Source: a virus (lineage: Duplodnaviria > Caudoviricetes). From it: a stretch of DNA of 64,000 nt. Location of the stretch: IMG/VR virus record IMGVR_UViG_3300029288_000065, positions 64,001 to 128,000 of that record; one strand, written 5' to 3'. The notes under the pieces were generated by a model that worked only from the letters and a program-made list of their open reading frames with translations, searched no databases and had not been told where the DNA came from. Below, in pieces: positions 52,861 through 64,000 of this stretch. A program made the position numbers and the translations under genes. Position 1 is the stretch's first letter. Each line of letters begins with the position of its first letter.

Positions 52861-53077
52861 TTTTCTTACCGGTCAATTTTGTGTAAATCTTCCTAGCAAT
52901 CATATCAACGTCGGCGCTTCCTTCTTCAAATGTAGGTTCTCCTTTCTTACGACTCCAATGCGGAGTTTGTTGTACGCCACCCAGGATATCGAAGGCTTCA
53001 TCTAGCATCCGATGTAATTTGTAACATTCGGCTGCTGAACGTTCACCATTCCCCAGGAAGATCTGTTCTGGTTTCAT
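52781..53077 (-). CDS. Hypothetical protein
   Basis: Fills gap; 3' end overlaps Nudix gene. Confidence 0.4.
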   Translation of the reverse strand: MKPEQIFLGNGERSAAECYKLHRMLDEAFDILGGVQQTPHWSRKKGEPTFEEGSADVDMIARKIYTKLTGKKINCRQTSPLKTAKYTHRPEKPKAATS

Positions 53078-53110
53078 AATCGCTGATATCAGTAGCTTGC
53101 ATGCTTAAAA

Positions 53111-54559
53111 TTATTGGGCGTGGAAAAATCTAATAAACGAACTGTCTATAGTAACTGCAACTCCATGATTTACTGCCCAGAAAGATCCAAACACACCATT
53201 GCATTTGGTCATTGTGAAACCAAAATCCGTTGACCTGTAAAGGTCGTTATTGTAATCTGGTTGAATGTATAGATTTTTACCATCAATTAAAGAATAAGAA
53301 CTTGGAATACTACCCATTTGAGATAGCTTATCAGTAGTCTGCAAATAAAAGACATTTGGATAAAGCCCAGGTGTGAGGTAAGTCTTTATCAATGACATTG
53401 TACTATCAATGCCCAATACCCAGAAAAAACCATCAACAATATTAAGAATTTCAGTCCAAGTGCGTCCAAAATCAAGCGATTGATAAACTTTCTTCCCATC
53501 TGAGGCAAAAGTAAGCAAAGTTGCACCTTGATAAACAACATAATCCCTGGTAAATGCCAAAGAACTTGTCTTCCTCCAAGTTAAGCCAGTATCTTCAGAA
53601 AGCCATACACCGAAATCATTAAAATAAAGGAATTCATTTGGTCGGTACGGTGTCCAAGCGAAACCTGGTGCTCCTTGCCACCACGGTGTTAAACCACTTA
53701 CAACTGCAGTCCAATCAATACCATTTTCAGTTCGATAAATTTTCTCACCGCCAATTAACCCAACACCATCCTGGTTTACAATTGCTCCTTTTGGATACCC
53801 ATCAAATGCAGGTACAATATTATTCCATGTAATACCATTATCATATGATTTATAGACATTTCCAATGGTGGTGTCAAGCATTAGGAAATAACCACCGAAA
53901 TCAACGATATTATATATTGAAACAGTTGGATCAGTAAACACCTCAGTCCAATTCACTCCATCAACTGATCTATAAATTGTCGAACTTATTAAGTTGTAGT
54001 CGACATCCCATAAAATATAAATGCAAAAGTATATGCCACCAACATATTTTACACTAACATCTGGGTTGTCACCTGTAGTATATGGTATATTTAATACTAA
54101 TTCCCAATTCCTACCAACACCATTATCAATTACAACAACACCATCATTTATTTGACTAATCACATCAGTTATAACTTCATTAGTATCAGATTGCTCTGTC
54201 ACATCGGCCAATGCGTTATTTGGCACATAATTATTTGATTCACCTCTATTTCTTTCTATATCAAATATATCAGAGGTTCCATCATTATAAGCAACAGTAC
54301 CATAGAGATGGATTGTGGCATCCAATATACTTTTCCCTGTGTTTATTGGAACGAAATTCCAGACTGCTGGCAGGAGGTGGTTCTGAAAGTCCACTATATC
54401 GGCAAAATTTGATCCAACTAGTTGTGAGAATACATCATCGGTTCCTGTTAGTTTTGCGGTTGTTTGGCTGTCGAAGGATACTTGGAAGGGTTCAGAAGTA
54501 TTGTCTTGGTAAGCTACCATACCAGACAGGTTGAATGTAAAGGACGTTACTGTTTTCAT
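53111..54559 (-). CDS. Asp-box/BNR-repeat beta-propeller protein, probably virion
   Basis: Repeats SVDGVNW, SYDNGITW, TENGIDW, SEDTGLTW, SLDFGRTW, STDFGFT; N-terminal GxVAYxDxT duplication. Confidence 0.75.
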   Translation of the reverse strand: MKTVTSFTFNLSGMVAYQDNTSEPFQVSFDSQTTAKLTGTDDVFSQLVGSNFADIVDFQNHLLPAVWNFVPINTGKSILDATIHLYGTVAYNDGTSDIFDIERNRGESNNYVPNNALADVTEQSDTNEVITDVISQINDGVVVIDNGVGRNWELVLNIPYTTGDNPDVSVKYVGGIYFCIYILWDVDYNLISSTIYRSVDGVNWTEVFTDPTVSIYNIVDFGGYFLMLDTTIGNVYKSYDNGITWNNIVPAFDGYPKGAIVNQDGVGLIGGEKIYRTENGIDWTAVVSGLTPWWQGAPGFAWTPYRPNEFLYFNDFGVWLSEDTGLTWRKTSSLAFTRDYVVYQGATLLTFASDGKKVYQSLDFGRTWTEILNIVDGFFWVLGIDSTMSLIKTYLTPGLYPNVFYLQTTDKLSQMGSIPSSYSLIDGKNLYIQPDYNNDLYRSTDFGFTMTKCNGVFGSFWAVNHGVAVTIDSSFIRFFHAQ

Positions 54560-54591
54560 AATGTATTTTTGATATCCAGTATTTTACTGAC

Positions 54592-55023
54592 ATGGGTCGG
54601 ATTAAAGCTACGAATGTTTTGACCAATTTGACGAAACTGGTTCGTTCTCAGTTTATAAATGATCTTGGTATTGTTTTGCGGGTAAAGTCTCAGCAATATA
54701 CTCATGAGGAGGCTGATAGGCCTTTAATTTTGTATTCTATTTTGGAGAGTAAACCAAAGGAGGAAGTGCCTGAAATTAGGATTGAGAGGAGTCGTGGTTT
54801 TCGTGGGGCTGTTTGGGATTTGCCTGTTTTTAGTAGGGTTTTGTGTGTGTTATATGTGAGAATTTATACTAATAGAGTGAGTATTGGGATTTATAATGAT
54901 GAGTATTCAGTTCCTACGAGCGTTGAGGAGGATACGAGTCGAGTGGTTTGGGAGTTTGCTGATCCGAGTTTTCCGGAGGCATTGACTGTTTGGGTAAAGG
55001 AGAAACTTGATGAGCGGCACTGA
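54592..55023 (+). CDS. Hypothetical protein (WEFADP motif)
   Basis: ORF; motif family member. Confidence 0.55.
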   Translation: MGRIKATNVLTNLTKLVRSQFINDLGIVLRVKSQQYTHEEADRPLILYSILESKPKEEVPEIRIERSRGFRGAVWDLPVFSRVLCVLYVRIYTNRVSIGIYNDEYSVPTSVEEDTSRVVWEFADPSFPEALTVWVKEKLDERH

Positions 55024-55228
55024 GTATGTTATCTATGTTAGGGTTGATTTGGGTTTGAACTATAAGGATACGAAGGAGGCTGTTGGGAATATTTTGGCTA
55101 GTGGGTCTTTGAGTGTTGACAGGAATTTTATGAAGGAGAAGTTTCCGGATATGAAGAGTGGTACTATTCAGATTTTGGATGGGGAAGATTATCCAAAGAT
55201 ATCTGAGTTTGAGATGATTGATTTTTAG
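55007..55228 (+). CDS. Hypothetical protein
   Basis: AAGGAG SD, coupled ORF. Confidence 0.5.
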   Translation: MMSGTEYVIYVRVDLGLNYKDTKEAVGNILASGSLSVDRNFMKEKFPDMKSGTIQILDGEDYPKISEFEMIDF

Positions 55229-55235
55229 ATTGTTT

Positions 55236-55988
55236 TTAGATAGTTTTTAGATAATTGCTGATTTTTTCTATTGCGTCTTCCATTCCTAGACAACAAGTGT
55301 ATGGGTTTCCGGCATGCCATCTATCGAATTTGTCTAGGTATTTTAGGAGGAACATTGGGATTCCTACACTATGGCAGAGGTGTGACATTCCGCTGCATAC
55401 ACCTACAAATAGGTCTGATTTGGCTGCTATTTCTATTTCTTCTTGGAGTGTTTTTCTTCCTCCTAATTTGACTAGTTTGAATTTTTTGAATATTAGTTGG
55501 AATCTTTGGATGTCCGTTGATTGTGGATTTTTTAGATTTCGTTCTGATCGTCCATCAAATTGATAACATATTTGGTGATAGGGTCCTGGTTGCCATTTGG
55601 TTTTGGTTGGGCAATATGGTAAATTATGTCGTTCGCTTACTTTTATTATTCTTTTCCCAGGTATATCTTTATTTTTATTTATGAATATTATTTTCCCTGG
55701 TGAGTCTAGGACTTCATATATGGCTTTTGCTTTATTTCCCCATCTTGAATCGTCGTAATATTTTGGTTGTTTGTCTTGTTCGCTTAATCTTAGGACGTAG
55801 TTGATTGTTCTCCAGTGATTTCCGAGTCCTGGTCCGTTGATTCCTTGATATATTTCTATTCCTGGTGGTGGCATGAATGCTGTTATTGGTATTGGTAATT
55901 TTAGTTCTTGTTTTGATGCTGGACCAATGAATTTTGGTCGTAGTAGTTGTGGTATGAATGTTGTTTTTCGTTGTTCGTACTTGTTCAC
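55236..55988 (-). CDS. GT9-like glycosyltransferase, paralogue of 17613 ORF
   Basis: GPGLGNHW, WQPGPY..ICYQFDG, SDLFVGVCSGMSHLCHSVGIP; start uncertain (GTG 55988 assumed). Confidence 0.7.
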   Translation of the reverse strand: MNKYEQRKTTFIPQLLRPKFIGPASKQELKLPIPITAFMPPPGIEIYQGINGPGLGNHWRTINYVLRLSEQDKQPKYYDDSRWGNKAKAIYEVLDSPGKIIFINKNKDIPGKRIIKVSERHNLPYCPTKTKWQPGPYHQICYQFDGRSERNLKNPQSTDIQRFQLIFKKFKLVKLGGRKTLQEEIEIAAKSDLFVGVCSGMSHLCHSVGIPMFLLKYLDKFDRWHAGNPYTCCLGMEDAIEKISNYLKTI

Positions 55989-56019
55989 AAATATATTTAC
56001 GAGATGGGATGGAGAATTC

Positions 56020-56760
56020 ATGATTGTTTTGATATTAACAGCCGCAGTAAATCCTTCAGTTGGGCGAAGGAGACTTACTGTTAGAGATCCTAATATTAGA
56101 ATGATGGAATATAGAGCATCTCTTTTTAGATGGATTACTGAGACTAAGGTTGATAAATTTATTATTGCTGATGCTTCAAATACTAGTATTATTAATAGTT
56201 ATTTTCATGAATTGGCTAAATTATATAATAAAATTTTACAGGAATTTATATTTGATTTTTCTGATGTTTCAAGGAGATTTGGGAAGGGTAGGTCAGAGGC
56301 GATGTTAACTGATTCGATTATTCCTAATTTATCAAATGGTGATGTTATTTATAAGATTACTGGTAGATTATTTCTTAAAAATTTTAATATACTTATTACA
56401 GATAAATTAGAATCTATTATAGGTTCTGATTTTGATAATAGAAGAACCAAAAGAACTGATACCAGATTTTGGAAGACTACTAAACAATATTATATGGAAA
56501 ATTTAATTAAATTAACTAATAGAATTGATGAGAATAAAGGATGGTGTATTGAAGATGTTTATCAGAAAATTGGTGGGTTTGTTCAACAACCAGTTTTTAT
56601 TGGGAGATCTGGTGCAAGTGGCGATATGTATTCGGGGATGTTGAATATTGATTTGCCGCCTTTGCCAGAGAAGCAGCCAATCAAAAAATCACCTCTATTT
56701 AATTTTAGGGTTGCTTCGAAGCATAATTTGCGGAGTTTTAAGAATTATATTACACATTGA
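56020..56760 (+). CDS. Glycosyltransferase-associated protein
   Basis: ILTA...R..EY..SL..W, GKG.SE, YKITGR, DTRF pattern recalled from polysaccharide loci. Confidence 0.55.
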   Translation: MIVLILTAAVNPSVGRRRLTVRDPNIRMMEYRASLFRWITETKVDKFIIADASNTSIINSYFHELAKLYNKILQEFIFDFSDVSRRFGKGRSEAMLTDSIIPNLSNGDVIYKITGRLFLKNFNILITDKLESIIGSDFDNRRTKRTDTRFWKTTKQYYMENLIKLTNRIDENKGWCIEDVYQKIGGFVQQPVFIGRSGASGDMYSGMLNIDLPPLPEKQPIKKSPLFNFRVASKHNLRSFKNYITH

Positions 56761-56804
56761 CGCGAAAGAACGGTTTGATATTATTTTGGTGAAAGGGGAA
56801 CACA

Positions 56805-57356
56805 ATGAAATTTCTAGCGATTTTTCTGGTTCTTGGTTCAGTTTTTTCTGAGGAAATTCAGCCGAAGACTGTTGGTGAGGCAGAGATGGCCTATAATAGG
56901 GAGTATAATACTGCTAAGGAGCAGTTTGATGCCAGAGTGAAGGTTGCACAAGATAAATTGGTTTTGTTTTTGAAAGATGAGATGAAGAGGTTGACCGTAA
57001 AAGGTGATTTGGATGGTGCTGTAGCGATTCGTGGGAAAATTAAAACTTTCGAAGAACCTGAAAAGCAAGTTGAAAAACCAATTTCTGAACCAATAGATAG
57101 AAGTAGTTGGTTAGTTGGTAAGAAGATTCTCTTTAGACATAAAACAGATATTGTCTTTACATTTAATAATAATAATTTATTTTTAAGAGATAAAGCTGGA
57201 AATCCGTTAGATAAATCAGGAAAATATTTCTTTGATGGGAAAATTTTAGTTATTACTCCTCTATCCAATTCCATTATAAATTTAAATTATGATGCTAAGG
57301 CTAATACATTTAAGACTGCTGATGGTTTTGTGGCATCTTTTATTCAACCAAAATAA
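56805..57356 (+). CDS. Secreted protein with signal peptide
   Basis: MKFLAIFLVLGSVFS signal; helical TxKGDLDGAVAIR segment. Confidence 0.6.
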   Translation: MKFLAIFLVLGSVFSEEIQPKTVGEAEMAYNREYNTAKEQFDARVKVAQDKLVLFLKDEMKRLTVKGDLDGAVAIRGKIKTFEEPEKQVEKPISEPIDRSSWLVGKKILFRHKTDIVFTFNNNNLFLRDKAGNPLDKSGKYFFDGKILVITPLSNSIINLNYDAKANTFKTADGFVASFIQPK

Positions 57357-57389
57357 TTATTAAGATATCTATCTTTGATACTACCAAAC

Positions 57390-57663
57390 ATGATATACTC
57401 ATACATCTGTGACCCAAAAACGACCCCGAAAAACTCCTCAAAGAATTCAAGAATACCACAACTCAGAACTATTCCACCTACCAAACCTAGCAAAATTCCT
57501 TTGCTGGAAAGAAACCAAAGAAACATGGTACCTCCAACTTCGTCACTACCTGGACTTCGCATCAGAACTCATAGACGTCTGGGAACTCCTAAAACTAATA
57601 GAAGTCTTTGAACGCTCAAAAGAAAAAGAAGGATGGATACTGTTTAGGATAAAACGACTATGA
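57390..57663 (+). pseudogene. Frameshifted DP-motif family gene (or sequencing error)
   Basis: Adding one A at 57416-20 and one at 57449-50 gives MIYSYICDPKNDPEKLLKEFKEY...VWELLKLI, matching neighbour MNIDLNNPNCDIEKLLTDF...AWEAVNLV. Confidence 0.5.
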
Positions 57664-58040
57664 ACATAGACCTAAACAACCCAAACTGTGACATAGAAAA
57701 ACTCCTAACAGACTTCACAGCCTACATCATCATAAACTTCCAGTATAAAGACCCATCCACAGGAGGAGCACAATTCAGCGCAAGAATGGTCGGATCATGG
57801 ATAAGAACCAGAACAGATGGACACTTCCATTTCTCCGACATGGGACTATACGGAGACATAGACCCAAGATTTAAAGAAGATGCCATGCGCTTAATAAAAG
57901 CCTGGGAAGCAGTAAACCTTGTAGATGACACAGGAGAAATGACAAATGGATACCGCGTATTCTGTATACCATATAGTTTAGTAATAAAAACAAAATTAGC
58001 AATGGAAAAAGCAATCAAAGAACAGATAAAGCCTGACTAA
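57660..58040 (+). CDS. Small protein of DLxNP family
   Basis: MNIDLNNPNCDIEKL. Confidence 0.6.
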   Translation: MNIDLNNPNCDIEKLLTDFTAYIIINFQYKDPSTGGAQFSARMVGSWIRTRTDGHFHFSDMGLYGDIDPRFKEDAMRLIKAWEAVNLVDDTGEMTNGYRVFCIPYSLVIKTKLAMEKAIKEQIKPD

Positions 58041-58626
58041 TCTCCTCATCAGTAAAAATCTTCTTCTTAGACCAACCATGCAAAAACTTAGACGAAGGAT
58101 TCAAAGAATTCCAATTATAAGCCTTATTATCAACCTCCAACCTCCCACCACCCCACTGAGCAAGAGACCTAGTCAAAGCCGGCTGATCACGCCCACCAAC
58201 AACCAACCACTCACTATGCCAAAGTCCAAATAAATCCCTAACTTTATCTGTAGAAAAAAGTAAAAAACCACTATTATATTGAGGTTTCCCACCAGAAGTT
58301 GGATGCACATCCCTCGTTAAAACCAAATCACCAGAAAAATCCCAAACCTCATCAAAGAGACCAACACACTTAACATCAGAATCCAAAAATAAAGTTCTCT
58401 CATATGGAGTATAATCACACAATTGAGTCTTTAACCACCTTGAAGGATTCTTATCCGTTACTTTTACCTGTTGTATTGTTGCTAGGGTATTCAAATACCC
58501 AGTATCACTCAAATCAGTTAGAACAGTAATTGGTTTGTTGGTAAATTCCCGCAATGAAAGTATACTACATGTACAGTTTATTAAGGCCTCTTCTCCGATT
58601 GCAATTTCAACTATTCCTTGTGTCAT
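58015..58626 (-). CDS. GT8-like glycosyltransferase
   Basis: K...TPYERTLFLDSD, YNSGFL, DQPAL, YN, FLH. Confidence 0.78.
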   Translation of the reverse strand: MTQGIVEIAIGEEALINCTCSILSLREFTNKPITVLTDLSDTGYLNTLATIQQVKVTDKNPSRWLKTQLCDYTPYERTLFLDSDVKCVGLFDEVWDFSGDLVLTRDVHPTSGGKPQYNSGFLLFSTDKVRDLFGLWHSEWLVVGGRDQPALTRSLAQWGGGRLEVDNKAYNWNSLNPSSKFLHGWSKKKIFTDEEISQALSVL

Positions 58627-58636
58627 ATTTTATTTT

Positions 58637-58808
58637 TGGTGCTCCTGGAAGGGTTCGAACCTCCAACCTTCCAATGGGATGAAACCCACCATCTAGTGCT
58701 ACGGATCAGACCCATCACACGAGTCGTCCCTTTAGATGACAGGTCATCACCCACTGGTGCTCCACCGACCCCACTACTGCGATAGTGGAGATTTTGAGCT
58801 ACAGGAGC
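58637..58808 (-). ncRNA. 172-nt tRNA-like RNA with enlarged D-loop and anticodon arm
   Basis: Acceptor GCUCCUG/CAGGAGC + A-CCA; U8A9; D-stem GCUC/GAGC; T-arm GGAGG-UUCGAAC-CCUUC; 33-nt D-loop and 87-nt anticodon arm both fold as hairpins. Confidence 0.8.
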
Positions 58809-58816
58809 AACTCTTT

Positions 58817-59242
58817 TTACTCATCATCGTATACAAGTCTCGGAGGCTTATTCTCCTTGAAATAAGCCCTAACATGTTCCTTTACAACTTCATTAAAACC
58901 ATACTTATTCATAATCTCCTCCAAATTCTCAGACGGCTCATCGCCACCCAAATATGCCTTTTCACCAACACAAATCAAAATATTATCAGCAAACACCTTA
59001 TGATTCCCTCTCACCACGTATGGGGTGGCGTAGAGAGGAGAATCATTACAACACCCACAAGAATGCCTCATTGAGACACCCTCAGCAATCGCGTAAACCT
59101 TCTTACTGGTGAAGTATTGCTTTCTCCACCTGTCAGTTTTTACCTCCATATCTGGAAATTCAATCATCAAGTTCTCGATCTCTGCTACTTCAAGTGCCTT
59201 GCTCTTCAGTTCTGCAAGGTGTTTGTCGATGGACTCTGACAT
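58817..59242 (-). CDS. Phage hypothetical protein
   Basis: AAGGAG SD; DRW...HSCGCCNDSPL motif. Confidence 0.6.
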   Translation of the reverse strand: MSESIDKHLAELKSKALEVAEIENLMIEFPDMEVKTDRWRKQYFTSKKVYAIAEGVSMRHSCGCCNDSPLYATPYVVRGNHKVFADNILICVGEKAYLGGDEPSENLEEIMNKYGFNEVVKEHVRAYFKENKPPRLVYDDE

Positions 59243-59252
59243 GTGTCTCTCC

Positions 59253-59558
59253 TTAGAGAAGCTTTAGTTCTCGGAACCAACCACTATCAACTGACGGGGA
59301 AATTGCCAATGCTGTGTGTGCGTTAATGTCTGGTTCATGGAAAATTGCGTGCTTAATTTCCTTGAACTTTTTCTCCCACGAGAGTAAGTCTTCCTCATCC
59401 TTGACGCCCAGGAGGACCATCGTCTTGTGGTTATTGTTCCAATCCTGTACCTATGGATCAGTTAGGTACCTGGAGAGGAACTCCGCTACAGCATGGCAAG
59501 CCTGTACTGCACGCTGAGAGGGCGAAAGATCCTTACGCACTAGCACATACAACTTCAT
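59253..59558 (-). CDS. Peptidyl-tRNA hydrolase Pth2-family protein with in-frame TAG at codon 36
   Basis: Not in ORF track. MKLYVLVRKDLSPSQRAVQACHAVAEF...TDP*VQDW...KTMVLLGVKDEEDL...FHEPD...TALAISP...LKLL; Pth2 hallmarks on both sides of TAG 59453-59451. Confidence 0.82.
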
Positions 59559-59919
59559 CTCGGAGTCTCCTTTCTTCCTGTATTTCCTTGCCCAGTTCCA
59601 ACCACTTTCTCTCGTATTTCTCGTCTCTGAGTTTCTCCATCAGACCAAATAAACTTCTGTTTGCGTAGGCTATGAGGTATGGGTATTTGTCTGAAATGTG
59701 ACAGGCTCGTTTGTCGTTCTCATTGCGATGGATGTGTAGTGCAATTAACCATTTGGAAGCTTCACGTTTATATCCTACGTAGGTTTTCCAGTTTTTTGAT
59801 TTTGGGTTGATGTGTTCGCCGATTTTGGTTCTAGAGTCTTGTTTTAAATCGGTGATTGCTTTGGCGTTTTTCCGGATGTAGTGCTTAATTACTTCTTCGA
59901 CCGTCAAATTCGTCGTCAT
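59533..59919 (-). CDS. Hypothetical protein
   Basis: ATG 59919 (MTTNL) after AAGGAG. Confidence 0.55.
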   Translation of the reverse strand: MTTNLTVEEVIKHYIRKNAKAITDLKQDSRTKIGEHINPKSKNWKTYVGYKREASKWLIALHIHRNENDKRACHISDKYPYLIAYANRSLFGLMEKLRDEKYERKWLELGKEIQEERRLRDEVVCASA

Positions 59920-59926
59920 CTTAAGT

Positions 59927-59975
59927 CTCCTTAACGGGTTTTGACCGAGGGGGTTGGCCATTACCCGTTAAGGAG
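59927..59975 (-). promoter_or_regulatory. Hairpin pairing with the Shine-Dalgarno of the 59919 gene
   Basis: 13-bp perfect inverted repeat CTCCTTAACGGGT/ACCCGTTAAGGAG with inner TGGCC/GGTCA stem; AAGGAG lies in the 3' arm. Confidence 0.6.
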
Positions 59976-60047
59976 GGTGAAGATCGATGTTTGGTACCTA
60001 ACGCATAACTGTCTCCTAATCTATTTTTATCTACGATTGTCAGTTTG

Positions 60048-60443
60048 TCAATAATCAACGCCTCTCATTTTCAATGTACCAAAATATTTCTCCATCCTCA
60101 AAAATTTCTTCTTTCTATCACTACAAAGGAAGATTAGGCAATCTACAAAGTGTTTCCAGAACGTGTCAGGGTCGAAATTCGGGTCTGCTAGTTCTATTTC
60201 ATAGAACACATAGCTTGGGTAATTTACATTATATTCTTTACTATAAAATATTTTTATGTCGGTATCTGAGATTTCTATAGAAGTTGCTCCGAGGATTCCA
60301 GTATCATAGTCCAGGCAACGTGGTGATTCACTTTTTATTGCAACCCGTCTAAGATCTTGCCCTAAGATTGAATATATTTCTTTCCCTAAGCGCTGGATTG
60401 ATTTTTCTATGGTATGCATGATTTCCAAATGATCTTCGTTCAT
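60048..60443 (-). CDS. Hypothetical protein (ELADPNFDP motif)
   Basis: ORF; motif family member. Confidence 0.55.
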   Translation of the reverse strand: MNEDHLEIMHTIEKSIQRLGKEIYSILGQDLRRVAIKSESPRCLDYDTGILGATSIEISDTDIKIFYSKEYNVNYPSYVFYEIELADPNFDPDTFWKHFVDCLIFLCSDRKKKFLRMEKYFGTLKMRGVDY

Positions 60444-60859
60444 TTTCGTTCCCCGAAATCTTTAAAATTATCCAGTACGTTACAGGCTTTGCTTCTTAAT
60501 TTTTTATGGTGTTCGATGCATTTTAGTGACGCATTTGTTATTCGTTCGCACTCGCTCGTGACATATTGTTTTATACTTTCAGCTGCTTCGTGAAAACAAT
60601 TGGGGTTTGCCATTTCGAATGTTAAATATTGTGTTTCACCATCAGAGCTGGTATTCAGATTGAAAACTAATAATAAATCACCTTCCACACTAATGGTTAT
60701 TTTTATAATAATTTTTGCAATATCATAATAATTATCCTTTAAACAGATTATTATTTCTTCGTAGGAATAATTTTTCTTGATTTCGAAAATGTCTGGGAGT
60801 CGTTTTTGTATTTCTGCCCAGATTTCGTTTATTATGGGGATTAGGGGGGTGTTATGCAT
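60440..60859 (-). CDS. Hypothetical protein (FEMANP motif)
   Basis: Start MHNTP directly after tRNA CCA. Confidence 0.55.
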   Translation of the reverse strand: MHNTPLIPIINEIWAEIQKRLPDIFEIKKNYSYEEIIICLKDNYYDIAKIIIKITISVEGDLLLVFNLNTSSDGETQYLTFEMANPNCFHEAAESIKQYVTSECERITNASLKCIEHHKKLRSKACNVLDNFKDFGERK

Positions 60860-60862
60860 ATT

Positions 60863-60938
60863 TGGCGCTTCCGGAGGGAATCGAACCCCCAACACACTGA
60901 TTTAGATTCAGCTGCTCTACCAATTGAGCTACGGAAGC
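60863..60938 (-). tRNA. Amber suppressor tRNA (anticodon CUA)
   Basis: 76 nt: GCUUCCG UA GCUC AAUUGGUA GAGC A GCUGA AU-CUA-AA UCAGU GUGUU GGGGG UUCGAUU CCCUC CGGAAGC G CCA. Confidence 0.88.
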
Positions 60939-60973
60939 GTCGTTCATAAGTATATATTATCGAGGAGACCAAA

Positions 60974-61459
60974 ATGGGAAAATCAATACCAACCAACCTC
61001 AAGAAATTAGCACAGCTAAAAATCAAAATTGATATACTAACTGAGAAGTACGAAAAAGACAAAGAATCCTACCAAAAACAACTCACGGAGCCAGGAGAAC
61101 GACTGGTAGATATAGACTCTGGACTTGCTTTAGTAATGATCCAAACCGAAAGACGACAATTTAATATTGAAGGTGTTAAAGCCAATGGAGGACAAGACTG
61201 CGTAGAAGAATCAGTAAGTGCAAAGAAATTTGATGCCAAATTCAAGAAAGGTGAGAAATATCTCCTCTCAGAAGACAAGATACAGGCTTGTTTCACGACA
61301 ACCAAACAAGCACCTTATATGAATTGGGAAGGACTTAAGGAATATCGAAGGAAAATTGAATCGATCCTCCAAAATACTGTAGGAAAAGTAATTAAAGAAG
61401 AGGAAAAACCCAATGCCAAGCCCAAAACCAATTCAGAGAACGGTATTGAAACTACCTGA
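60974..61459 (+). CDS. Hypothetical protein
   Basis: GAGGAG SD; Lys/Glu-rich. Confidence 0.55.
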   Translation: MGKSIPTNLKKLAQLKIKIDILTEKYEKDKESYQKQLTEPGERLVDIDSGLALVMIQTERRQFNIEGVKANGGQDCVEESVSAKKFDAKFKKGEKYLLSEDKIQACFTTTKQAPYMNWEGLKEYRRKIESILQNTVGKVIKEEEKPNAKPKTNSENGIETT

Positions 61460-61670
61460 ATCACTCCAGAGTAACAATATAGCTCTAAGTCTAAACCGAG
61501 AGCAAGCCACTATGCTCCTAAAAGGATTGGAAAGCCTTTCCGAAGACCAAAAGAAGACCGTAGTGTTTGCCAAGATGAAACGAGATCTCGAAAGTATTGT
61601 TGTAATCTGGGATAGACGAATTAAGAATACAAAACTTATTGAAGCTGAAAATGCTAAAAACACTAAATAG
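61413..61670 (+). CDS. Hypothetical protein
   Basis: ORF with GAGG SD. Confidence 0.5.
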   Translation: MPSPKPIQRTVLKLPESLQSNNIALSLNREQATMLLKGLESLSEDQKKTVVFAKMKRDLESIVVIWDRRIKNTKLIEAENAKNTK

Positions 61671-62361
61671 GATTCTTACATCCTAATCCACAATTGGTAC
61701 ACTTCTGATCTAGTGTTAGAGTGAAATCATGTACAGTATAATTTAAGCCCCAAGATTTGGCTTGAATAGCATAATCTAATGGAGTTGAGATCATTTTCCA
61801 CATAACTGGTTTCCGCCCGAGAAGAATCCATTCTCTAAATTCTGAATCTTTGAATCCGTCAGAAACCATTTTTTCAAATGTCCCCCATGGTTTCCTACTT
61901 TCCAGAACTTGTTGATAACGGTTTATTGATGGCATCCAAGATGATACAACCATCGCATAATAGATAGTCGAAATTTTCCAATCTCTAATCCTCCACCACG
62001 CCCCATAAATCTTGGCAGATCCTAAGAGATTTTCCAAGTCCAAAGTCCAATCAAATTTGGGGATAAATCTACGAGACCACTTCACAAGAATTTCATGATG
62101 TTGACTTGAACACCAATGTAGACCTGCCAGCATTGATGCCACATCACCAACCTGGTGTCCAAATCTTATTGGTGACCCACGGTATGTGGCTCCATACTTG
62201 TAAGCCAAATTCCGAACTGAATCAAAATTCCCATCGTCGTGGACCAATATAGGAATTTTTGGGAAAAACCGTTTCGCAGATTCCAAGAAAAGATGAGTAT
62301 AAGCTGGAGATCCAAAGGTTGAATATACCGTCCCAAAACGCATTTCCACATCCTTTATCAA
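61663..62361 (-). CDS. GT2-like glycosyltransferase-related protein
   Basis: ILVHDDG; GH..GD; start probably MRFGT. Confidence 0.5.
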   Translation of the reverse strand: MIKDVEMRFGTVYSTFGSPAYTHLFLESAKRFFPKIPILVHDDGNFDSVRNLAYKYGATYRGSPIRFGHQVGDVASMLAGLHWCSSQHHEILVKWSRRFIPKFDWTLDLENLLGSAKIYGAWWRIRDWKISTIYYAMVVSSWMPSINRYQQVLESRKPWGTFEKMVSDGFKDSEFREWILLGRKPVMWKMISTPLDYAIQAKSWGLNYTVHDFTLTLDQKCTNCGLGCKNPI

Positions 62362-62397
62362 TATATTTGATTATAAATATAAAAAAGAGGTTTATCT

Positions 62398-63219
62398 TTG
62401 ATGTTAAAATCAATTAAAACTTGTATTCCGAGATTAAGAAAACGACCAGAAGTTAAACTCAATATCTTAGAAAAAAGAAACCCAATAATATATGTATATA
62501 CTATTGCTTATAATGAAGAGGTAATGATACCATTTTGGTTAAGACATTATTCAAAATTTGCAACTAAATTGATAATTTATGATAATTTTTCAACAGATTC
62601 AACGAGACAAATAATTACATCATTTCCTAACACTGAGATTAAACAATTCGATACCAAAAACACACTTGATGAAAATAATTTACTTAAAATTAAAAATGAA
62701 TGTTATAAAGAAGCGAGAGGATATGCCGATTTGGTCATCGTCTGTGATGTTGACGAAATTCTCTACCATCAGGATATAATTGGTTTTTTAAAATATTGTT
62801 TGGAACAAAAAATTACATTCCCACGGGTTCTGGGGTTTCAGATGGTTGGGAAACAAGTTCCAACATTTGGACAGATTTATGACCACATAAAAACAGGTGT
62901 CGAATTTGAACGTGAATCGAAACATATCATTTTTGATCCGTTGTTAGATATTAATTTTACAACTGGTGCGCACGAGTGTAATCCTATTGGGGCAATCAAG
63001 TCATCTGAAGATTCTTTTTTATTATTACATTATAAATTCTTATCTCTAGATTTCGTAATTAAACGATATAATCTACTATGTAGTAGATTATCTGAAAATA
63101 ATAAAACGAGAAAATGGGGATGGGAATATCAAGTTACAAATAATCAAATTAAGAATTGGTATTTTGATTTATTGAAGAAATCCAAAAATATTTTAGAAAG
63201 AGAATGGAAGAGATATTGA
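62398..63219 (+). CDS. GT2 family glycosyltransferase
   Basis: AYNEE..IPFWLRHY, YDNFSTDST, CDVDE, LLHYK. Confidence 0.82.
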   Translation: MMLKSIKTCIPRLRKRPEVKLNILEKRNPIIYVYTIAYNEEVMIPFWLRHYSKFATKLIIYDNFSTDSTRQIITSFPNTEIKQFDTKNTLDENNLLKIKNECYKEARGYADLVIVCDVDEILYHQDIIGFLKYCLEQKITFPRVLGFQMVGKQVPTFGQIYDHIKTGVEFERESKHIIFDPLLDINFTTGAHECNPIGAIKSSEDSFLLLHYKFLSLDFVIKRYNLLCSRLSENNKTRKWGWEYQVTNNQIKNWYFDLLKKSKNILEREWKRY

Positions 63220-63232
63220 TCAAAGATCATAT

Positions 63233-63991
63233 ATGTTAAAGTCAGTATTCCAAAAACCTGGATTTCCACCTCTGAGAAAAATTATCCCAAATCAAGAAAC
63301 AAACAAAATTAGATATAACAAAAATTTTGAAATAGATATAGTTGAATTTTGTTCATTATCATGTTTAAATTGTAATAGGTCATGTGCATCCCATCAAGCA
63401 CCATCCAATCGATTTATCTCTATTGATGCTATAAAAGATTTTCTTCATCAAGTGAAAATATTTAAATGGGATTTAGAAAATATACATATTGTTGGTGGTG
63501 AACCAACTCTTCATCCACAATTTTTCCAATTATTAGAAATACTACAAAAATCAGGTATCCCAAATTTACAATTAACCTTAATTACAAATGGATATAGTGA
63601 AAAAACCAAACAAATTTTAAATCAAGTTCCAAAATCAATTAAGATTTTAAATTCAAAGAAAACCTCAAATATACAGAAAAATTTCGTATCATTCAATGTT
63701 GCGCCAATTGACCTTGAAGATTTCAAGGGATCCAATTTTTCGCAAGGGTGTCAAATTTCAGCAAAATGTGGATATGGTCTTGGCGTGTCTGGTTTTTACC
63801 CATGTTGTGTAGCGGCTGGAATAGATAGAGTATTCAAGTTTAATCTTCAGCAATCTTCTTTACAAAGTCTAACAACACAATGGTATAATAAAACTTGCTC
63901 TATTCTGTGCCGTTTTTGCGGTCATTTTCATGGGAAATCTCACTTTGATCCAAATTTTAAATCTCAATCATGGGTGAAAGCATATGGATAA
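63233..63991 (+). CDS. Radical SAM protein with Cys-rich C-terminus
   Basis: CSLSCLNC, GGEPTLHP, ITNG; C-terminal YPCC...CRFC. Confidence 0.88.
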   Translation: MLKSVFQKPGFPPLRKIIPNQETNKIRYNKNFEIDIVEFCSLSCLNCNRSCASHQAPSNRFISIDAIKDFLHQVKIFKWDLENIHIVGGEPTLHPQFFQLLEILQKSGIPNLQLTLITNGYSEKTKQILNQVPKSIKILNSKKTSNIQKNFVSFNVAPIDLEDFKGSNFSQGCQISAKCGYGLGVSGFYPCCVAAGIDRVFKFNLQQSSLQSLTTQWYNKTCSILCRFCGHFHGKSHFDPNFKSQSWVKAYG

Positions 63992-64000
63992 GTTTCAACA

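What the first reader, a model, noticed from the sequence alone, without database searches (positions are those of the whole stretch)
58637..60938. Candidate amber-gated translation module: CUA tRNA + TAG-interrupted Pth2 + giant tRNA-like RNA
Seen: within 2.3 kb on one strand lie a CUA-anticodon tRNA, a Pth2 gene whose only defect is one in-frame TAG, a 172-nt tRNA-shaped RNA and an SD-covering hairpin. TAG is a normal stop for many genes here (e.g. 4079, 34366, 34700, 50560, 51525, 55228), so the genome is not code 15. Known: Pth2 recycles peptidyl-tRNA, and some phages reassign TAG or carry suppressor tRNAs. Inference: full-length Pth2 is made only when the phage suppressor is charged and outcompetes RF1, giving a feedback or timing switch, or a snapshot of early TAG reassignment.
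Basis: partly seen in the sequence, partly recalled or inferred. Interest (0 to 1): 0.92.

Follow-up and report, generated by a model that had tools for sequence, protein, structure and literature searches.

The report
Double amber-gated phage Pth2-like operon
A giant landfill/groundwater phage that otherwise uses the normal genetic code carries its own UAG-reading tRNA and places UAG stops both in a tiny ribosome-stalling leader and inside a tRNA-hydrolase-like gene, so these genes are probably made only when stop-codon read-through beats normal termination; dozens of distant phages share the design, and I found no published description of it.

Summary
Confirmed, and larger than first read. 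The TAG at codon 36 of the Pth2-like gene is real: it is in an independent sample and is kept at the same column in 9 sequences of 54-96% identity while up to 76% of synonymous codons changed. Of 58 homologues, 17 have an internal TAG (7 columns); none has an internal TAA or TGA. 40 of 48 viral loci carry a tRNA(CUA) within 8 kb. The 'SD-covering hairpin' is an attenuator under a second gate: a leader Met-Arg-TAG...His-Pro-Pro-TAA (60006-59968). Such leaders occur in 40 of 52 loci versus 3 of 320 control windows. The gate codon follows the anticodon (TAA/UUA in TAG-recoded Lak-B1, TGA/UCA in one locus). Cultured Bxz1, XacN1 and Xoo-sp13 carry amber gates too. The module is: amber leader, hairpin, unknown ORF-A, Pth2-like gene, tRNA(CUA). 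Gating is well supported; its purpose is not shown (best guess: a sensor of release-factor shortfall). Hydrolase activity is unproven, as the catalytic motifs are altered. The 172-nt RNA is real but not conserved with the module. Early TAG reassignment is unlikely. The scan found this module before in many other genomes (91 notes, at least 61 genomes).

The parts
60863..60938 (-). tRNA with CUA anticodon (amber suppressor candidate), encoded CCA, G73, loop AU-CUA-AA
   Evidence: 99% identical in L014 and 80% in L012/L013, same position
60023..60051 (-). sigma70-like promoter candidate (TTGACA-17-AAAAAT) ahead of the leader
   Evidence: best-scoring site, but the count of sites is at chance level; TTGAC kept in L014 and L012/L013
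59968..60017 (-). amber leader: SD AGGAG, then ATG (60006) CGT TAG (60000-59998) ... CAC CCT CCT TAA = M R amber V P N I D L H P P stop
   Evidence: conserved with an in-frame indel in L014, L012, L015, L016, L026; family-wide in 40 of 52 loci versus 3 of 320 controls
59927..59975 (-). 13-bp attenuator hairpin: 5' arm = leader Pro-Pro-stop, 3' arm = AAGGAG SD of ORF-A
   Evidence: fold; 92% of cells paired, 2 compensatory changes in 4 sequences (not significant against shuffles, 63/500); modelled SD unpairing 0.00 to 0.52 with a ribosome on Pro-Pro-stop
59533..59919 (-). ORF-A, 128-aa helical protein of unknown function; its end overlaps the Pth2-like start by 26 nt
   Evidence: a profile finds the family upstream of the Pth2-like gene in about 40 loci; no clear fold match
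59253..59558 (-). Pth2-fold gene, 101 codons, in-frame TAG at codon 36 (59453-59451) after Asp-Pro
   Evidence: model pLDDT 96.5 matches Pth2 structures at TM about 0.8; TAG conserved
58817..59242 (-). 141-aa ORFan directly downstream; kept in close relatives only, possibly co-transcribed
58637..58808 (-). 172-nt tRNA-shaped RNA with D-loop hairpin and 24-bp rod; real but probably a passenger, not part of the module
   Evidence: absent in L012/L013

Best explanation
A self-contained read-through sensor with two amber gates in series. The phage tRNA(CUA) competes with host RF1 at UAG. Normally a ribosome on the leader stops at codon 3, too far upstream to touch the hairpin, so the ORF-A start stays hidden (OFF). 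If the tRNA wins, the ribosome reaches His-Pro-Pro-stop, pauses on the hairpin's 5' arm and frees the ORF-A SD. ORF-A is translated, coupling starts the Pth2-like gene, and that needs a second read-through at codon 36, which sharpens the response. SHOWN by sequence comparison: the gates, their conservation, their match to the anticodon and the hairpin geometry. INFERRED: that the tRNA is made and charged, that the stall opens the hairpin in vivo, and translational coupling. GUESSED (about 40%): the signal is a shortfall of release-factor activity during infection, and the output is a back-up release or tRNA-recycling activity, a prfB-like feedback built with a tRNA instead of a frameshift. The confidence below is for the gating, not for the purpose.
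For: TAG36 is at one alignment column in 9 sequences while 10/36 to 22/29 synonymous codons differ. 17 of 58 homologues have an internal TAG at 7 columns, mostly variable ones, none has an internal TAA or TGA, and the tree needs at least 5 changes. A tRNA(CUA) is present in 40 of 48 viral loci and is the nearest tRNA in 35 of 43. The leader motif is in 40 of 52 loci versus 3 of 320 control windows (a pattern I tuned on these loci; the stricter first scan gave 21 of 50 versus 1 of 322). A ribosome modelled on the Pro-Pro motif raises SD unpairing by more than 0.2 in 26 of 34 loci and lowers it by that much in none; a ribosome at the amber leaves it unchanged. Many leaders end in RGPP, RSPP, RAPP or RDPP, known translation-impeding motifs (PMC12992588); Pro-Pro-stop and Asp-Pro-stop impede release (PMC3985003). 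The gate follows the anticodon: Lak-B1 TAA/UUA, L042 TGA/UCA. The +4 base is a purine in 16 of 17 internal TAGs versus 26 of 46 ordinary TAG stops (rows are related; a purine favours suppression, own knowledge).
Against: Nothing is experimental: no RNA or proteomic data. The tRNA bodies share no acceptor-stem or discriminator identity set, and I saw no aminoacyl-tRNA synthetase in the part of the genome scanned (window ORFs and 11 families not displayed), so the charging route is unknown. TAG ends 17% of this phage's long genes, so strong suppression should be costly. 12 of 52 loci show no leader by my pattern and 8 of 48 no CUA tRNA nearby. The Pth2 catalytic motifs are altered. SD opening is a folding model only, and the hairpin covariation in four sequences does not beat shuffles.
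Confidence: 0.8

Rival explanations
1. Negative-feedback homeostat: the gates are real, but ORF-A and/or the Pth2-like protein deacylate, sequester or destroy the suppressor tRNA, capping harmful read-through while the tRNA serves some other purpose.
For: The output switches on exactly when suppression is high. The Pth2 fold binds tRNA esters and its site is altered, which could mean a new substrate. The gene is usually adjacent to the tRNA. TAG stays a common stop.
Against: It needs other targets for the tRNA, and none were found here: no further early-amber genes, and TAG-ended genes have no more long extensions (5/46) than TAA-ended ones (19/125). In Lak-B1 the module uses a separate UUA tRNA, not the recoding one.
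Confidence: 0.22
2. Positive-feedback or timer switch: tRNA accumulation or charging delays expression, and the products recycle or help charge the tRNA, locking the ON state.
For: Two gates in series give cooperativity. Short leaders shed peptidyl-tRNA that needs a hydrolase (own knowledge of lambda bar minigenes). ORF-A is unknown and could assist charging.
Against: There is no downstream payload to time, and a plain late promoter would be simpler. There is no evidence for a charging role.
Confidence: 0.2
3. Early stage of TAG reassignment: the tRNA lets neutral TAGs accumulate, first in neighbouring genes.
For: Borges et al. propose suppressor acquisition ahead of recoding (10.1101/2021.08.26.457843).
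Against: TAGs are confined to the leader and the Pth2-like gene. The same site persists across saturated synonymous divergence. The leader architecture is regulatory. Already-recoded Lak uses a TAA gate. TAG is not depleted as a stop here. The module could still be the raw material for later recoding.
Confidence: 0.07
4. Pseudogene or assembly error.
For: An in-frame stop; gene callers split the gene into 35- and 55-aa pieces.
Against: Independent sample; both halves conserved in frame; only TAG is ever used.
Confidence: 0.01

Closest known systems
Arrest-peptide translational attenuators (SecM-secA, ApdA/ApdP RAPP peptides; ermCL and TnaC from own knowledge)
   Same: A short upstream ORF stalls a ribosome on an RxPP or Pro-Pro-stop motif and unmasks the next gene's SD (PMC12992588, PMC10951233).
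   Different: Here access to the stall site is gated by an in-frame stop codon, so the input is suppression versus termination, not secretion, an antibiotic or a metabolite. PMC12992588 has no occurrence of 'phage' or 'stop codon'.
prfB (RF2) autoregulation through an in-frame UGA (own knowledge); ArfA as a back-up made only when tmRNA fails (PMC3985003)
   Same: An internal stop codon turns slow termination into expression of a translation-related product.
   Different: The bypass is a dedicated phage suppressor tRNA, not a +1 frameshift. There are two gates. The product is not a release factor (no PF00472 match in this 89%-complete genome).
Stop-codon-recoded phages with suppressor tRNAs (code 15 crAss-like and Lak; Borges et al. 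10.1101/2021.08.26.457843)
   Same: Phage suppressor tRNA; in-frame TAG proposed as a regulatory device.
   Different: This genome is code 11 and the gates are confined to one operon, not spread over structural and lysis genes. The tRNAs lack a common Gln-type identity set. That preprint has no occurrence of 'hydrolase' or 'peptidyl'.
Archaeal/eukaryotic Pth2, and the PTH2 noted in jumbo phages (Iyer et al. PMC7824862)
   Same: Same fold (TM about 0.8 to 2zv3, 1wn2, 1q7s) and Pfam PF01981.
   Different: The GK lysine position is variable (Arg16 here), Asp becomes an invariant Glu75, and the xAGxTQ loop is missing; it scores far below the NCBIfam equivalog cut-offs (27.8 vs 126; 26.4 vs 82). 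The motifs resemble human PTRHD1 from memory (not tested). That review links phage PTH2 to ribosome rescue and has no occurrence of 'suppressor'.
Unexplained suppressor tRNAs of standard-code phages (XacN1, PMC5852040)
   Same: CUA tRNAs in a code-11 jumbo phage that also encodes a Pth2-like domain.
   Different: The authors found no target. XacN1 has SD-ATG-AAG-TAG in frame just ahead of annotated ORF364, which carries the Pth2-like domain: a candidate target, although an in-frame ATG seven codons on could start the gene without read-through.

Membership tests
Pth2 peptidyl-tRNA hydrolase | Pth2 fold / PF01981 | tested here: met
Pth2 peptidyl-tRNA hydrolase | Canonical catalytic Lys/Asp/Thr set (residue roles from own knowledge) | tested here: not met
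   Alignment to 2zv3: Lys aligns to a variable R/Q, Asp to an invariant Glu, the Thr loop is absent; below equivalog cut-offs
Pth2 peptidyl-tRNA hydrolase | Hydrolyses peptidyl-tRNA | not testable with these tools
   needs an assay
Amber suppressor tRNA | Canonical cloverleaf, CUA in a 7-nt loop with U33 and A37, CCA end | tested here: met
   (A32 is unusual)
Amber suppressor tRNA | Aminoacylated and decodes UAG in vivo | not testable with these tools
   no RNA or protein data
tRNA-Pyl / pyrrolysine system | Pyl-type tRNA architecture and pylS/pylBCD genes | tested here: inconclusive
   ARAGORN's 'Pyl' label follows the anticodon only; the tRNA fits the standard RF00005 model end to end; no pyl genes were seen in the partial genome scan, but they were not searched for directly
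Code-15 recoded phage | TAG read as sense genome-wide or in blocks of late genes | tested here: not met
Arrest-peptide attenuator | uORF with stall motif overlapping an SD-sequestering stem | tested here: met
Arrest-peptide attenuator | Demonstrated stall and induction | not testable with these tools
   needs toeprinting and a reporter
tmRNA (for the 172-nt RNA) | G3-U70, no D-stem, tag ORF | tested here: not met
   It has U3-A70 and a D-stem; no ARAGORN or Rfam tmRNA call
Archaeal-type intron tRNA (for the 172-nt RNA) | Bulge-helix-bulge at the insert junctions | tested here: not met
   The predicted fold shows 1-nt bulges around a 3-bp helix, not 3-4-3 (by inspection)

The most novel reading that the evidence does not exclude
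A widespread, undescribed phage device in which a dedicated 'probe' tRNA exists mainly to compete with host release factors at a true stop codon. It reports termination capacity through an arrest-peptide attenuator and switches on a two-protein back-up (ORF-A plus a Pth2-fold protein with an altered active site). The probe codon is swapped (UAG, UGA, UAA) to suit the phage's code. This would explain the suppressor tRNAs of standard-code phages and supply the starting material for stop-codon recoding.
Probability: 0.35. Interest if true: 0.9.

Novelty: new variant of a known kind. Interest (0 to 1): 0.76.

Why it matters
It offers concrete natural targets for the puzzling suppressor tRNAs of standard-code jumbo phages (XacN1's authors found none), and it corrects gene models that are now split or started too late. 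It is directly testable in cultured phages on laboratory hosts, such as mycobacteriophage Bxz1 on M. smegmatis, and it would be a ready-made natural reporter of amber read-through.

Tried and rejected
Giant-RNA homologues: exact pattern in viral contigs 0 hits; phage blastn matched T-arms only; the metagenome pattern gave 3 unrelated hits; Rfam gave only a partial tRNA match, E 6.3. These scans find close relatives only, so absence is weak, apart from the syntenic absence in L012/L013. ORF-A: no Pfam, PHROG or NCBIfam family, no Atlas hit, no fold match above the helical-bundle background. ORF-A with Pth2-like complex prediction: no answer, no evidence either way. Sequencing runs: no RNA holder listed. 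No RF-1 family match in the genome, which is 89% complete. The promoter scan count is at chance level. My first structure string was misregistered (corrected). Literature searches for Pth2 plus suppressor plus phage found no description. The papers on Pth2 catalytic residues and on R/HxPP were not held, so those residue roles rest on my own knowledge. Code 15 and code 4 for the whole genome were rejected. The host was not determined.

Full report
Setting. The window lies in a 233,959-bp linear virus record, 89% complete, with T4-like capsid, portal, sheath and terminase genes. It is held by landfill and groundwater metagenomes. It uses code 11: of 268 long ORFs, 125 end in TAA, 97 in TGA and 46 in TAG, and coding cover does not improve under code 15. 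The host is unknown.

The observation. All four named features are present on the minus strand: tRNA(CUA) 60938-60863, a 13-bp hairpin 59975-59927, a Pth2-like gene 59558-59253 with TAG at codon 36, and a 172-nt tRNA-shaped RNA 58808-58637. An independent groundwater study covers the TAG without a difference.

The TAG is selected. The same Asp-Pro-TAG-Val site (Asp-Thr-TAG in one) recurs in L010, L012, L014, L015, L016, L080, L081 and L084, at 54-96% protein identity. Between the window and these relatives, 10 of 36 up to 22 of 29 same-residue codons have changed synonymously, yet the stop is always TAG. Across 58 homologues, 17 carry an internal TAG at seven alignment columns and none carries an internal TAA or TGA; well-supported branches force at least five changes (a 100-column tree, weakly resolved). 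40 of 48 IMG/VR loci have a CUA tRNA within 8 kb, often within 25 nt of the gene's stop; it is the nearest tRNA in 35 of 43 loci, and 42 of 182 tRNAs found are CUA.

A second gate. Following a first-stage note on this genome (e1-5650617), I tested the region ahead of the hairpin. It holds SD-ATG-CGT-TAG and ends CAC-CCT-CCT-TAA; the Pro-Pro-stop forms the hairpin's 5' arm, and the 3' arm is the SD of a 128-aa ORF-A whose end overlaps the Pth2-like start. Relatives keep this with frame-preserving indels: MT-amber-VKQFYKVYHPP (L012), ML-amber-VEHPP (L016), MS-amber-NKWDHPP (L026), and two ambers in L015. A strict scan found amber leaders ending in Pro-stop in 21 of 50 loci versus 1 of 322 control windows; a broader pattern, tuned on these loci, found 40 of 52 versus 3 of 320. 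Many end in RGPP, RSPP, RAPP or RDPP, which impede translation (PMC12992588); Pro-Pro and Asp-Pro before a stop hinder release (PMC3985003). Folding with a ribosome footprint at the amber leaves the ORF-A SD paired (mean unpaired 0.16), whereas a footprint at the Pro-Pro motif opens it (0.51); the rise exceeds 0.2 in 26 of 34 loci, and in the window it goes from 0.00 to 0.52. The stem shows two compensatory changes in four sequences, not significant alone. ORF-A is a conserved helical family found upstream of the Pth2-like gene in about 40 loci, with no recognisable family or fold.

The gate follows the anticodon. L042 has a UCA tRNA and a leader with TGA. Lak-B1, a TAG-recoded phage, has a UUA tRNA and a leader MELQHW-TAA-VTCDRGP. 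These are two cases only, but they suggest that the tRNA's job is to compete at a true stop, not to recode. Cultured phages carry gates too: Bxz1 has MF-amber ahead of gp153, Met-amber at the start of gp154 and the CUA tRNA 306 nt on; Xoo-sp13 and XacN1 have an amber at codon 4 and codon 3 of a larger protein that ends in the Pth2-like domain. The XacN1 paper reported finding no target for its CUA tRNAs (PMC5852040). Aeromonas phage Aeh1 has a more distant homologue with no tRNA nearby and no gate that I could see, so the link is not universal.

The protein. The read-through product folds confidently (pLDDT 96.5) as Pth2 (TM about 0.8); the 35-residue truncation keeps only one strand and one helix. 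The catalytic motifs of archaeal Pth2 are altered and equivalog scores are far below cut-off, so it should be called Pth2-like. Its invariant residues (R8, D10, Q19, H22, W40, E75) point to a conserved but possibly different activity.

The tRNA. It is a normal cloverleaf. Across loci the acceptor stems and discriminators vary freely, so no single identity set is conserved. From my own knowledge, generic CUA tRNAs are often charged weakly with Lys or Gln by host enzymes, which would fit a low-level probe; this is inference.

No other targets. Genome-wide I found no further convincing early-amber gene, and TAG-ended genes have no more long open extensions than TAA-ended ones (5/46 versus 19/125). 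The tRNA's only visible targets are the leader and codon 36.

The 172-nt RNA. It is real and well structured, but too large in the anticodon arm to decode. In L012/L013, 73% identical across the module, an antisense gene stands in its place and no T-arm element is found; no homologue turned up elsewhere. It is neither a tmRNA nor a bulge-helix-bulge intron tRNA. It contains ATCTAAA, the CUA tRNA's loop sequence, but not in a hairpin loop. Odd tRNA-like RNAs lie near the module in several other phages, so a loose link is not excluded; most likely it is a lineage-specific passenger.

Mechanism and verdict. Termination at the leader's amber is OFF. Read-through, then a stall at His-Pro-Pro-stop, opens the hairpin and turns ORF-A ON, and the Pth2-like protein needs a second read-through. 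I put this gating at about 0.8. For its purpose I favour a sensor of release-factor shortfall driving a back-up activity (about 0.4), over a homeostat that curbs the tRNA (0.22) or a positive-feedback timer (0.2). It works like an arrest-peptide attenuator crossed with prfB autoregulation but is a member of neither. I found no paper describing it. This scan has noted the module in many other genomes; those notes are not independent support, and one later check priced the bold reading at 20 in 100. What this genome adds is a double gate with an ancient, fixed internal TAG, and evidence that the giant RNA is separate.

Noticed in passing
L070:3555-3835 (G000:C1): tRNA-Leu(UAA) interrupted by an insert of about 195 nt in the anticodon loop that looks like a group I intron; not confirmed with Rfam.
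   Followed up: no
L024:11624-11852: Another giant (about 229-nt) tRNA-shaped RNA with acceptor stem, T-arm and CCA, 3.3 kb downstream of a Pth2-like gene; no sequence likeness to the window's RNA.
   Followed up: partly
L016:7273-7351, L055:7541-7627, L063:6505-6562: Odd tRNA-like RNAs inside or beside the module: an 8-nt-loop GAAA tRNA, one with an extended anticodon arm, and a 58-nt mini-tRNA in Bxz1. L037 has a TTCA 8-nt-loop tRNA.
   Followed up: partly
L063:5977 (Bxz1 gp154), L065:4437, L088:640: Annotated starts in Bxz1, Xoo-sp13 and XacN1 lie just downstream of an in-frame ATG...TAG; the gene models may be started too late.
   Followed up: partly
L066:4341-5291 (Lak-B1): Ochre version of the module: tRNA(UUA) and a TAA-gated leader in a TAG-recoded megaphage.
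   Followed up: partly
L080, L081, L082: The module occurs on contigs binned as Acidobacteriota, Clostridia and Thermoplasmatota; near-identical copies in two phyla suggest mis-binned phage or mobile DNA.
   Followed up: no
G000:C1:151259-157681(-): The 2140-aa ORF is followed in frame, after one TAA, by about 1800 open codons; probably two adjacent in-frame genes, read-through not examined.
   Followed up: no
window 53000-64000 and L074: Dense cluster of glycosyltransferase-like and radical SAM genes flanking the module.
   Followed up: no
window 60048-60850(-): Two ORFans between the tRNA and the leader carry the short [LF]-x-[DN]-P motif that first readers noted genome-wide.
   Followed up: no
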